DNA from: Octopus sinensis
Lineage: Eukaryota
Assembly: GCF_006345805.1 (NCBI RefSeq)
Contig: NW_021832491.1
Span: 1 to 32,896, forward strand
DNA length: 32,896 nt
Reading direction: 5' to 3'
Part shown: piece after piece, positions 22,484-23,162 of the stretch
Layout of the letters: each line of letters starts with the position of its first letter
Numbering within the stretch: the stretch's first letter is position 1
Position numbers: made by a program

Positions 22484-23110
22484 ATCATTAATCAATTTAG
22501 GGTAGCAAAAAATTCAGTAAAAATTTATCGCTACCAGCGGCCTATGGAAAGAGAAAATAGTCAAAGACTAATATGTATAAATATAACAATTTAGGAATGG
22601 CCTAAACAGGCCATTCGTCCACCAGAATAGCAGCCAGATCCAACCGCCAAGTAGTGTAATTCGGAAATAAGGTGAAAATTAAAAACATTTACCCTAATTC
22701 ATCTTTTATACGATGCACGTTTCAGTGTCTTTAATGATAGACCCGCTTAATTAAATTAAATTAAGATTGAATCGGCAGTTTATATTTGCTGCCGATAAGT
22801 TTGGCACGAATGCGTTGGTCTTGAAAATTTTAAGACAGATATTCCCGAGGCATTGATACAGTCGCCTCGTGTCTATCCGTCTCTCTCCAGGTTCTTTTAC
22901 TGATGAAGTGTGACCTATGGTAGACTAGCTTAATTTAATTTAATTAAGCTGGTCTATCATTAAAGACACTGAAACGATGCATCGTATAAAAGATGAATTA
23001 GGGTAATGTTTTAAATTTTCACCTTATTTCCGAATTACACTACTTGGCGGTTGGGAGTTCTGGCTGCTCTTTCTGGTGGACGAATGGCCTGTTTAGGCCA
23101 TTCCTAAATT

Positions 23111-23162
<52 letters not shown>

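What the first reader, a model, noticed from the sequence alone, without database searches (positions are those of the whole stretch)
22484..23113. Young fold-back element carrying a perfect hammerhead ribozyme and its own antisense copy
Seen in sequence: a complete type I HHR (22893-22993) with all core bases, a 7-bp stem I, an unusually long stem II and a 12-nt palindromic stem III. About 180 bp of it and its downstream sequence is duplicated in inverted orientation upstream (22585-22765). The inverted copy begins within the AT-rich tip of the stem II hairpin, lacks CTGATGA, and runs about 100 bp further 3' (to 22484). The unit has no ORF and sits inside (TA)n. Established: Penelope-like pLTRs and retrozymes carry type I HHRs with palindromic stem III that can act as dimers, and pLTRs can be inverted. 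Inference: a non-autonomous self-cleaving retroelement whose inversion arose by fold-back or template switch at the stem II hairpin. A read-through transcript could fold either as active ribozyme or as a long dsRNA that blocks it.
Basis: partly seen in the sequence, partly recalled or inferred. Interest (0 to 1): 0.9.

Follow-up and report, generated by a model that had tools for sequence, protein, structure and literature searches.

The report
Penelope-type hammerhead retroelement remnant, head-to-head
This is a short, gene-less remnant of a hammerhead-ribozyme-bearing retrotransposon of the Penelope-like kind, inserted as two facing truncated copies into a (TA)n microsatellite, which is an ordinary insertion pattern for such elements although its ribozyme has an unusually long second helix.

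Summary
On the + strand at 22893-22993 there is a complete type I hammerhead (HHR) motif. It has a 7-bp helix I, CUGAUGA, a 64-nt helix II, GAAA, a 12-nt palindromic helix III and a GUA cleavage site after 22986. About 180 nt of its 3' half and downstream sequence recur inverted at 22587-22765 (175 of 184 columns identical). The unit has no ORF and lies between two (TA)n tracts.

The interpretation needs toning down. An inverted 5'-truncated copy next to a 5'-truncated copy, an extension ("tail") at one end only, insertion into (TA)n and an HHR near the 3' end are all published structural traits of Penelope-like element (PLE) insertions. No special fold-back event is needed.

A new detail is that both outer ends finish with the same 9-mer, CCTAAATTG, each just after a stem-loop. 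This fits two alternative reverse-transcription start sites.

The HHR is not "perfect". Position 10.1-11.1 is A-U rather than the conserved G-C, and no Rfam hammerhead model matches it even at E<=10.

No RT or GIY-YIG ORF and no second copy lie in the window. No eukaryotic genome was available, so copy number, family and activity stay untested.

Verdict: a real feature and a new member of a known kind. Interest is modest.

The parts
22426..22485 (.). Left flank: (AT)n microsatellite, the presumed target tract
   Evidence: Tandem Repeats Finder: period 2, 31 copies.
22493..22586 (-). Extension present only on the left (inverted) copy, read here as a candidate PLE 'tail'. On the minus strand it ends with CCTAAATTG (22493-22501), directly after the stem-loop GGTAGC...GCTACC (22501-22535).
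   Evidence: It has no partner on the right side. The exact 9-mer occurs 3 times in the window, all at this locus; 0.39 are expected in the whole window and 6e-4 in 110 nt.
22587..22765 (-). Inverted, 5'-truncated copy (179 nt). It holds the 3' half of helix II, GAAA, helix III (broken by a 1-nt deletion), the cleavage site, the helix I 3' strand and about 118 nt downstream, ending in the stem-loop GAATGGCC...GGCCATTC plus CCTAAATTG (22587-22595). It has no CTGATGA.
   Evidence: 175 of 184 columns are identical to 22929-23111.
22766..22892 (+). Unique 127 nt between the arms, read here as the part of the right-hand copy upstream of the HHR. It contains two local hairpins.
   Evidence: No repeat partner in the window. 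Fold.
22893..22993 (+). Type I hammerhead motif. Helix I is 22893-22899/22987-22993. CUGAUGA is 22900-22906. Helix II is 22907-22970. GAAA is 22971-22974. Helix III is 22974-22985. The predicted cleavage is after A22986.
   Evidence: Sequence. Folds: the HHR conformer is -36.6 against an MFE of -37.6 kcal/mol, and the dimer MFE equals the double HHR. Descriptor versus shuffles. No Rfam hammerhead hit.
22994..23113 (+). 3' region of the right-hand copy. It ends with the stem-loop GAATGGCC...GGCCATTC (23082-23103), then CCTAAATTG (23103-23111), then TT.
   Evidence: (D4).
23114..23257 (.). Right flank: (TA)n microsatellite
   Evidence: Tandem Repeats Finder: period 2, 72.5 copies.

Best explanation
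The locus is a dead-on-arrival insertion of a hammerhead-bearing retroelement of the Penelope-like (PLE) kind, or of a short element mobilised by one, into a (TA)n microsatellite.

Proposed origin (inferred):
- Two copies of the element's 3' region were reverse-transcribed from the two strands of the cut target. They therefore face each other, each with its 3' end against the (TA)n flank.
- The right copy (+ strand, about 22766-23111) reached 127 nt upstream of the ribozyme and so carries the whole HHR.
- The left copy (- strand, 22765 down to 22493) stopped in the tip of the long helix II hairpin, so it holds only the 3' half of the HHR.
- The left copy started at a more distal site on the RNA, which gives it a 94-nt 'tail'.
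- Both starts lie directly after a stem-loop followed by CCUAAAUUG. I take these as two alternative reverse-transcription initiation sites.

Proposed function (inferred):
- In the parent element the HHR would cut multimeric or read-through RNA after GUA, most likely as a dimer through the palindromic helix III.
- At this locus it has no partner in cis. In a + strand read-through RNA it is thermodynamically swallowed by a ~177-bp duplex with the left arm. The likely fate of such a transcript is therefore a hairpin dsRNA rather than self-cleavage.

What is shown: the anatomy, the folds and the statistics. What is inferred: the retrotransposition steps, the ribozyme activity and the dsRNA fate.
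For: 1. HHR motif. All core bases and three helices are present. It is the only hit of a generic descriptor in the window, and 1 of 1000 shuffles scored.
2. Energetics. The HHR conformer lies within 1 kcal/mol of the MFE. The dimer MFE is the double hammerhead, at -89.9 against -75.2 kcal/mol for two monomers.
3. Head-to-head copies. The arms match at 175 of 184 columns, and each arm's 3' end abuts (TA)n.
4. Shared terminal 9-mer. CCTAAATTG occurs 3 times in the window, all at this locus and at the copy ends; 0.39 are expected per window. Each follows a stem-loop.
5. Published PLE traits, read as passages:
[quoted passage not shown] Reverse transcription starts at two internal sites in a stem-loop region roughly 85-92 nt downstream of the HHR cut site, and the tail is the stretch between them (PMC11167929). 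Here the right-hand end lies 125 nt downstream of the cut site.
   - Pairs of PLE HHRs on opposite strands 100-700 bp apart, mostly single truncated motifs, and a small palindromic helix III in PLE HHRs of flies, rotifers, shrimps and mosquitoes (PMC4209133).
6. At the two arm differences inside the HHR (22950, 22977), the complete right copy keeps the pairing state in 2 of 2 cases. This is weak evidence.
Against: - No hammerhead family of Rfam 15 matches. There are 0 hits at gathering score on the whole window. None appears at E<=10 on 901 nt (17 hits), on 114 nt (28 hits) or on 43 nt (1 hit). The hits listed in those three calls are to unrelated families, mostly miRNA or hairpin models, and all lie far below their gathering scores.
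- Pair 10.1-11.1 is A-U, whereas G10.1-C11.1 is 'highly conserved' in PLE HHRs. [quoted passage not shown]
- Helix II has 64 nt, against 4 bp in canonical and 6-8 bp in PLE HHRs.
- No RT or GIY-YIG domain turned up in 40 of the 84 candidate ORFs (>=70 aa, entropy >3.7) sent to Pfam. The only listing was a sub-threshold MG3 match.
- There is no direct pLTR or tandem repeat and no second copy in the window.
- The 'tail' is 94 nt, not 30-40 bp. It could instead be a separate fragment or an insertion flanked by a 9-bp duplication.
- Naiads, the clade with the documented (TA)n bias, are reported to lack canonical HHRs.
- No eukaryotic genome, transcript or read data could be searched.
Confidence: 0.65

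Rival explanations
1. A single copy of a non-autonomous HHR retroelement became a fold-back because the polymerase (RT or DNA polymerase) switched template, or snapped back, at the helix II hairpin. One molecule thus generated its own antisense arm.
For: The inverted copy begins 7 nt 5' of the helix II loop, inside a 19-bp AT-rich hairpin. The arms are 95% identical.
Against: - A snap-back at the hairpin tip would join the arms at the tip. Instead, 163 nt separate them, including the 5' half of the HHR and 127 unique nt.
- The left arm carries 94 nt that the right one lacks. It is therefore not a copy of the right arm as that arm now stands.
- The breakpoint position alone has about a 6% chance of arising at random (my estimate).
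- Head-to-head copies are already expected from PLE integration.
Confidence: 0.12
2. A DNA-level inverted duplication of one HHR-bearing insertion, by replication template switching or palindrome formation at the hairpin or in the unstable (TA)n tract. The extension was later lost on the right side.
For: Long (TA)n tracts and a 64-nt palindromic hairpin are fragile, recombination-prone DNA (general knowledge). The arms are near-identical.
Against: - It needs an extra deletion to explain the one-sided 94 nt.
- It does not explain why both outer ends finish with the same 9-mer after a stem-loop.
Confidence: 0.1
3. A fold-back or MITE-type DNA transposon with ~180-bp terminal inverted repeats and a TA duplication. 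The hammerhead-like motif would be a coincidence.
For: - The inverted repeat ends exactly at 22585/23113, with TA-rich flanks on both sides.
- There is no ORF.
- Rfam does not see a hammerhead.
Against: - The descriptor hit has about a 1 in 1000 chance per window, and the real motif exceeds the thresholds used, with a 7-bp helix I and a 12-nt palindrome.
- The third CCTAAATTG outside the repeat is unexplained.
- The arms show no sub-repeats.
- A TSD cannot be read inside (TA)n.
Confidence: 0.08
4. An assembly or read fold-back artefact.
For: Craig et al. note that complex PLE insertions cause assembly problems (PMC8557442 passage).
Against: - The arms differ by 3 substitutions and 5 indels and are separated by 163 unique nt.
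- They have unequal outer ends.
- A chimeric fold-back read would give a symmetric, spacer-less palindrome.
Confidence: 0.03

Closest known systems
Penelope-like element (PLE) insertions with a pLTR hammerhead (Penelope/Poseidon, Neptune, Nematis, Hydra clades). Structural description in Craig et al. 2021 (PMC8557442), biochemistry in Frangieh et al. 2024 (PMC11167929).
   Same: - The HHR lies about 100 nt from the 3' end of the inserted unit.
- There is heavy 5'-truncation.
- An adjacent inverted 5'-truncated copy forms an inverted repeat.
- An extension is present at one end only.
- The insertion sits in a microsatellite.
   Different: - No RT/GIY-YIG ORF and no direct pLTR at this locus.
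- The extension is 94 nt rather than 30-40 bp.
- The documented (TA)n bias is for Naiads, which are said to lack canonical HHRs. For Neptune a microsatellite bias is only cited.
- Membership of any clade could not be tested.
PLE minimal hammerheads and small-helix-III variants (Cervera and de la Pena 2014, PMC4209133)
   Same: - Type I topology.
- Weak, palindromic helix III that predicts action as a dimer.
- Helix II longer than canonical.
- Motifs occur mostly as single truncated copies, sometimes as pairs on opposite strands 100-700 bp apart.
   Different: - Helix II is 64 nt (5 bp, internal loop, 19 bp) rather than 6-8 bp.
- Pair 10.1-11.1 is A-U, not G-C.
[quoted passage not shown]
- Helix III has 4 pairs and a tetraloop, more than in the min-HHRs.
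- The opposite-strand partner here is only half a ribozyme.
Metazoan non-LTR retrozymes (Cervera and de la Pena 2020, PMC7229834; Li et al. 2026 preprint, 10.64898/2026.07.22.740005)
   Same: - Short, AT-rich, non-coding unit carrying a type I HHR.
- The preprint argues for a PLE-related origin.
   Different: - Retrozymes are head-to-tail tandem repeats of about 150-450 bp. They have canonical loop-loop contacts and are expressed as circRNAs.
- This locus has one HHR, no direct repeat and an inverted partial copy.
Naiad 'HHR_half_core' cases (Craig et al. 2021, methods passage)
   Same: The two halves of the HHR core are separated by much more than the 7-17 nt allowed by standard descriptors. 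The elements target (TA)n.
   Different: - The separation is 35-50 nt there and 64 nt here.
- No helices were reported for those cases.
- The sequences are in supplements that I could not open, so this is a lead and not a comparison.

Membership tests
Hammerhead ribozyme, type I | Conserved core C3 U4 G5 A6 N7 G8 A9 / G12 A13 A14 / A15.1-U16.1 / H17 | tested here: met
   CUGAUGA is at 22900-22906 and GAAA at 22971-22974. U is at 22985 and A at 22986. It is the only descriptor hit in the window.
Hammerhead ribozyme, type I | Three helices around the core, helix I open-ended | tested here: met
   Helix I has 7 bp, helix II 5+19 bp and helix III 4 bp plus a UGCA loop. The HHR conformer is -36.6 against an MFE of -37.6 kcal/mol, and it becomes the MFE when the core is kept unpaired.
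Hammerhead ribozyme, type I | G10.1-C11.1 closing pair of helix II (highly conserved, not absolute) | tested here: not met
   A22907-U22970 occupies this position. Its conservation is stated in PMC4209133.
Hammerhead ribozyme, type I | Match to a curated hammerhead covariance model (Rfam) | tested here: not met
   No hammerhead family at gathering score. None at E<=10 on 901, 114 or 43 nt. The likely cause is the 64-nt helix II, but I could not test that.
Hammerhead ribozyme, type I | Tertiary contact between helix I and helix II loops | tested here: inconclusive
   No loop 1 is defined, and loop 2 lies 24 pairs from the core. A 5x5 internal loop after 5 bp of helix II sits where loop 2 normally is. 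Whether it contacts helix I cannot be computed here.
Hammerhead ribozyme, type I | Self-cleavage at the predicted site | not testable with these tools
   This needs in vitro transcription of about 22880-23010 as monomer and dimer.
Penelope-like element insertion | ORF with PLE-type RT and GIY-YIG endonuclease | tested here: not met
   40 of the 84 candidate ORFs (>=70 aa, entropy >3.7; 152 ORFs >=70 aa before the filter) were scanned with Pfam. No RT or GIY-YIG was found. This is expected if the copy is 5'-truncated or non-autonomous.
Penelope-like element insertion | HHR near the 3' end of the inserted unit (in the pLTR) | tested here: met
   The cleavage site at 22986 is 125 nt from the right-hand end at 23111. 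Compare the PAc passages.
Penelope-like element insertion | Direct pseudo-LTR / partial tandem | tested here: not met
   No direct repeat of the unit in the locus or the window.
Penelope-like element insertion | Adjacent inverted 5'-truncated copy | tested here: met
   22587-22765 (-) matches 22929-23111 (+) at 175 of 184 columns. The trait is described in PMC8557442.
Penelope-like element insertion | Short extension (tail, 30-40 bp) at one end only | tested here: inconclusive
   There is a one-sided extension at 22493-22586, but it is 94 nt long. It ends with the same 9-mer as the other end.
Penelope-like element insertion | Microsatellite target (clade-dependent) | tested here: met
   (AT)n at 22426-22485 and (TA)n at 23114-23257.
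Penelope-like element insertion | Sequence similarity of the 3' region to an autonomous PLE of the same genome | not testable with these tools
   No eukaryotic genome or repeat library was available. The two scans of the prokaryotic genome-contig collection gave 0 matches.
Non-LTR retrozyme | Head-to-tail tandem repeats of about 150-450 bp, each with a type I HHR | tested here: not met
   One HHR only, and no direct repeat.
Non-LTR retrozyme | Expression as circular RNA | not testable with these tools
   No RNA data were available.
MITE / fold-back DNA transposon | Terminal inverted repeats with a fixed target-site duplication | tested here: inconclusive
   The inverted arms end at 22585/23113. 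A TSD cannot be read inside (TA)n.

The most novel reading that the evidence does not exclude
The motif may be a working hammerhead of an undescribed architecture: a 64-nt helix II with an internal loop taking the place of loop 2, and A10.1-U11.1. Rfam misses it, and so would a descriptor that allows only 7-17 nt between the core halves, as quoted. It sits at the 3' end of a (TA)n-targeting PLE lineage. If it is family-wide and active, PLE clades now described as lacking canonical hammerheads (Naiads, with their 'HHR_half_core' cases) may in fact carry long-helix-II hammerheads. The same hairpin might also act as a preferred stop for reverse transcription, one that shapes the inverted copies.
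Probability: 0.15. Interest if true: 0.55.

Novelty: new member of a known kind. Interest (0 to 1): 0.3.

Why it matters
The locus matters mainly as an annotation lesson. It looks exotic when read alone: a ribozyme facing its own antisense half inside a microsatellite. Its main traits (facing truncated copies, a one-sided extension, the microsatellite site, an HHR near the 3' end) match the published insertion signature of Penelope-like retroelements, which standard pipelines often miss.

Two details could be useful to specialists.
- The hammerhead escapes all Rfam models because of its 64-nt helix II. Surveys that conclude 'no HHR' for some PLE clades may therefore be descriptor-limited.
- The two copy ends share a stem-loop plus the CCUAAAUUG motif. 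This offers a concrete, testable candidate for the two reverse-transcription start sites that were shown biochemically for one lizard PLE.

The ~177-bp hairpin RNA that a read-through transcript would form is a plausible source of small RNAs against the family.

Tried and rejected
Rfam. I searched the whole window at gathering score and three sub-stretches at E<=10. No hammerhead family appeared. The hits listed are to unrelated families, mostly miRNA or hairpin models, all far below their gathering scores, and I take them as chance matches. I could not test whether shortening helix II would restore a match, because that needs an altered sequence.

Other copies.
- Self-BLAST of the locus against the window and of the window against itself found only the two arms.
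- Two exact-pattern scans of genome contigs, which holds prokaryotes only, gave 0 matches. That is uninformative for a eukaryotic repeat.
No eukaryotic genome, repeat library or RNA data set was available. Copy number, family consensus, linkage to an autonomous PLE and expression all stayed unchecked.

Linked genes. Pfam was run on 40 of the 84 candidate ORFs. It gave nothing except a sub-threshold MG3 listing for 17562-18017(-). The other 44 ORFs were not scanned. No tRNA genes were found.

Other HHR cores. CTGANGA occurs 21 times in the window. CTGATGA followed by GAAA within 8-38 nt occurs 2 times. None of these, apart from 22900, passes the helix descriptor.

Literature on the A-U pair at 10.1-11.1. 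One search and passages of PMC544870, PMC2837043 and PMC6155905 gave no activity data for A10.1-U11.1. That this pair tolerates change with reduced rate is recalled from older mutagenesis work that I did not see.

Organism. It was not determined. The Atlas lead of 'Arthropoda' for one ORF and the extreme microsatellite content are hints only.

Supplements were closed. Supplementary figures S3/S5 of PMC4209133 (shrimp and fly PLE HHRs) and supplementary file S1 of PMC8557442 (HHR_core / HHR_half_core lists) may bear directly on whether this HHR architecture is already recorded.

Papers, and what I saw of each:
- PMC4209133: parts 1-2 of 4 of the full text.
- 10.64898/2026.07.22.740005: abstract, outline and section 14.
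- PMC7229834, PMC11167929, PMC8557442, PMC544870, PMC2837043, PMC6155905: passages from 'find' calls only.
- Other titles: search listings only.
- Koyama et al. 2013 is known to me only through its citation in PMC4209133.
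Full report
WHAT IS THERE

The window is AT-rich and unusually full of microsatellites and short satellites; Tandem Repeats Finder lists 63 rows. It is also dense with a ~400-nt interspersed repeat that reaches up to about 20-fold self-match depth.

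The finding sits between an (AT)n tract at 22426-22485 and a (TA)n tract at 23114-23257.

Reading the + strand gives the following motif:
- TCTTTTA (22893-22899)
- CTGATGA (22900-22906)
- a 64-nt hairpin (22907-22970)
- GAAA (22971-22974)
- CGATGCATCG (22975-22984)
- T, A (22985, 22986)
- TAAAAGA (22987-22993)

This is the order and spacing of a type I hammerhead. Helix I has 7 bp. The core bases C3-A9, G12-A14, A15.1-U16.1 and H17 = A are all present. Helix III is A-U, C-G, G-C, A-U with a UGCA loop, and it is part of a 12-nt palindrome. The predicted cut falls after 22986.

IS IT MORE THAN CHANCE?

I wrote a generic descriptor that was not tuned to this instance. It required helix I >=5 bp, helix II >=4 bp, helix III >=3 bp with G-U allowed, up to 120 nt between the core halves, and CUGANGA...GAAA...U-H. 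It finds one site on the two strands of the window, and that site is this one. Among 1000 dinucleotide-preserving shuffles of the window, 1 gave any hit. With looser limits (4/3/2 bp), 13 of 1000 did. The real motif exceeds the strict limits.

Folding results:
- The 111-nt stretch has z = -6.9 against shuffles.
- The hammerhead conformer has -36.6 kcal/mol. The MFE is -37.6 kcal/mol and pairs CUGAUG with CAUCG instead of forming helix III.
- With the core held unpaired, the hammerhead is the optimum.
- Two copies cofold into the classical double hammerhead with a 12-bp intermolecular helix III, at -89.9 against -75.2 kcal/mol for two monomers.

WHAT SPEAKS AGAINST A TEXTBOOK HAMMERHEAD

- No Rfam 15 hammerhead model matches. 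This holds at gathering score on the window and at E<=10 on 901, 114 or 43 nt. The weak hits listed there are to unrelated families, mostly miRNA or hairpin models, all well below their gathering scores.
- The pair closing helix II is A-U. [quoted passage not shown]
- Helix II has 5 bp, then a 5x5 internal loop, then 19 bp. Its terminal loop therefore cannot touch helix I.
- The internal loop lies where loop 2 normally does. Whether it makes a tertiary contact cannot be computed here.

"Perfect hammerhead" is thus too strong. [quoted passage not shown] is accurate.

THE INVERTED COPY

BLAST and MAFFT and a global alignment agree. 22929-23111 and the reverse complement of 22587-22765 match at 175 of 184 columns, with 3 substitutions and 5 indel events.

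The inverted copy starts 7 nt 5' of the helix II loop. It contains the 3' strand of helix II, GAAA, helix III (with a 1-nt deletion that breaks the palindrome), the cleavage site, the 3' strand of helix I and the ~118 nt that follow. It has no CUGAUGA; the nearest CTGANGA on the minus strand is at 23450-23456.

The arms are separated by 163 nt. These comprise 127 unique nt (22766-22892) and the 5' part of the hammerhead.

Nothing else in the window resembles the locus. No ATG ORF of >=30 aa overlaps it.

The exact 9-mer CCTAAATTG occurs three times on the two strands of the window, all of them here:
- at the right end (23103-23111, +)
- at the matching inner position on the left (22587-22595, -)
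- at the outer left end (22493-22501, -), beyond the inverted repeat

From base composition, 0.39 occurrences are expected in the whole window and about 6e-4 in a 110-nt stretch.

Each terminal 9-mer follows a stem-loop directly: GAAUGGCC...GGCCAUUC for the inner sites and GGUAGC...GCUACC for the outer one. Both copies therefore end, against the AT-rich flank, with 'stem-loop + CCUAAAUUG'. The left copy uses a site 94 nt further along.

WHAT IT MOST LIKELY IS

The published description of PLE insertions fits most of these features. Craig et al. 2021 (passages) report:
- a high degree of 5'-truncation
- often an inverted 5'-truncated copy immediately adjacent, forming inverted repeats
- a 30-40-bp tail, often at one end only
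- a strong insertion bias for microsatellites, with (TA)n for Naiads and a linker motif proposed to mediate such a bias in Neptune

Frangieh et al. 2024 (passages) report:
- a purified lizard PLE protein cuts and extends both strands of the target
- reverse transcription starts at two internal sites in a stem-loop region
- that region lies 111-118 nt into the ORF, with the HHR cut site 26 nt after the start codon, so the starts are about 85-92 nt past the cut site
- the tail is the stretch between the two start sites

Cervera and de la Pena 2014 report:
- PLE hammerheads occur mostly as single truncated motifs
- they sometimes occur as pairs on opposite strands 100-700 bp apart
- PLE HHRs of flies, rotifers, shrimps and mosquitoes have a small palindromic helix III

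I therefore read the locus as two 5'-truncated cDNAs of the same kind of RNA, one primed from each strand of a cut (TA)n target. The right one started at the proximal site, 125 nt past the cut site, and reached 127 nt upstream of the ribozyme. The left one started at the distal site and ended in the helix II hairpin. The integration steps are inferred; the anatomy is shown.

WHAT I COULD NOT SHOW

- No RT or GIY-YIG domain was found in the 40 of 84 candidate ORFs that I scanned.
- There is no direct pLTR.
- The extension is 94 nt rather than 30-40 bp. It could instead be a separate short fragment of a related element, or an insertion flanked by a 9-bp duplication.
- The clade with the documented (TA)n bias, the Naiads, is reported to lack canonical HHRs.
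- With one locus I cannot say whether the parent is an autonomous PLE or a short PLE-dependent element. The 2026 preprint argues that animal retrozymes are such derivatives (abstract and section 14).
- No eukaryotic sequence collection was open.

HOW IT WOULD BEHAVE AS RNA (INFERRED)

Alone, the ribozyme region can adopt the active fold at a cost of 1 kcal/mol. It gains about 15 kcal/mol by dimerising.

Helix III has four pairs and a tetraloop. That is more than in the amphibian and minimal PLE motifs, which need dimers (passages). Some monomer activity is therefore conceivable.

In a + strand transcript that begins upstream of 22587 the picture changes:
- The MFE has 177 pairs between the arms.
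- It sequesters 22929-22993, that is the 3' strand of helix II, GAAA, helix III, the cut site and the helix I 3' strand.
- It lies 56.7 kcal/mol below the best structure that keeps the hammerhead, at -355.7 against -299.0 kcal/mol.

Such an RNA is more likely to end as a long hairpin dsRNA than to cleave itself. Local co-transcriptional folding of helix II could give the ribozyme a short time window. None of this can be tested here.

RIVALS

This would place the junction at the tip with no spacer, and it cannot create the one-sided 94 nt.
- DNA-level inverted duplication. This needs an extra deletion and does not explain the shared terminal motif.
- MITE or fold-back transposon. This would make both the hammerhead and the third 9-mer coincidences.
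- Read or assembly fold-back. This would be symmetric and spacer-less, whereas the arms differ at 9 of 184 columns and have unequal ends.

I give these 0.12, 0.10, 0.08 and 0.03, against 0.65 for the PLE-type head-to-head insertion.

NOVELTY AND INTEREST

The kind of element, the inverted arrangement, the one-sided extension, the microsatellite target and the dimer-prone type I hammerhead are all in print. This is a new member of a known kind.

Two things are modestly new:
- The hammerhead architecture, with a 64-nt helix II and A10.1-U11.1, is invisible to Rfam. My two literature searches on PLE HHRs and helix II and the passages I read did not show a helix II of this length. The relevant supplements were closed, so I do not claim it is unpublished.
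- The paired 'stem-loop + CCUAAAUUG' ends are a candidate for the two start sites.

Craig et al. mention Naiad cases with the two core halves 35-50 nt apart that fit no descriptor. That makes the boldest reading worth a look: some 'HHR-less' PLEs may carry long-helix-II hammerheads. I rate overall interest at 0.3.

Noticed in passing
window 1-32896 (e.g. 3321-3692, 3922-4235, 7526-8111, 11718-12102, 19955-20197, 28486-29015): The window has an extreme load of microsatellites and minisatellites, including (TTC)n, (ACC)n, (TATG)n, (CA)n, (TA)n and (TGG)n. Tandem Repeats Finder lists 63 rows. Several (TA)n tracts abut other repeats, so (TA)n may be a general landing site in this genome.
   Followed up: no
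window, about 20 places, e.g. 12873-13271, 14129-14549, 16970-17415, 20648-21501, 24371-24807, 26701-27120, 31723-32126: There is a dispersed repeat of roughly 400 nt, present in both orientations, with self-match depth up to about 20. Its pseudo-translations recur among the ORFs. Of the copies sent to Pfam, none gave a family. It is unrelated to the hammerhead locus.
   Followed up: partly
window 358-1829 (-): A run of four open frames on the minus strand (1251-1829, 987-1247, 555-869, 358-642) looks like pieces of one protein-coding gene or transposase. None has a Pfam family. The ESM Atlas places the 193-aa piece next to unnamed clusters that are mostly from Arthropoda, with scores of 0.88-0.91, which is a lead only.
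   Followed up: partly
window 18-173 and 13558-13768: The same 62-68-nt tandem unit (GGTGCTTTTTACGTGCCACCGGCACGG...) occurs at two distant places, with 2.5 and 3.2 copies. ARAGORN calls no tRNA there.
   Followed up: no
window 29636-30225: A 101-nt satellite with 5.9 copies and 93% matches.
   Followed up: no
window 22900-22906 / 22980-22984: In the isolated ribozyme the MFE pairs part of the catalytic CUGAUG box with the 3' half of the helix III palindrome (CAUCG). This inactive alternative is 1 kcal/mol below the active fold, and dimerisation removes it.
   Followed up: partly
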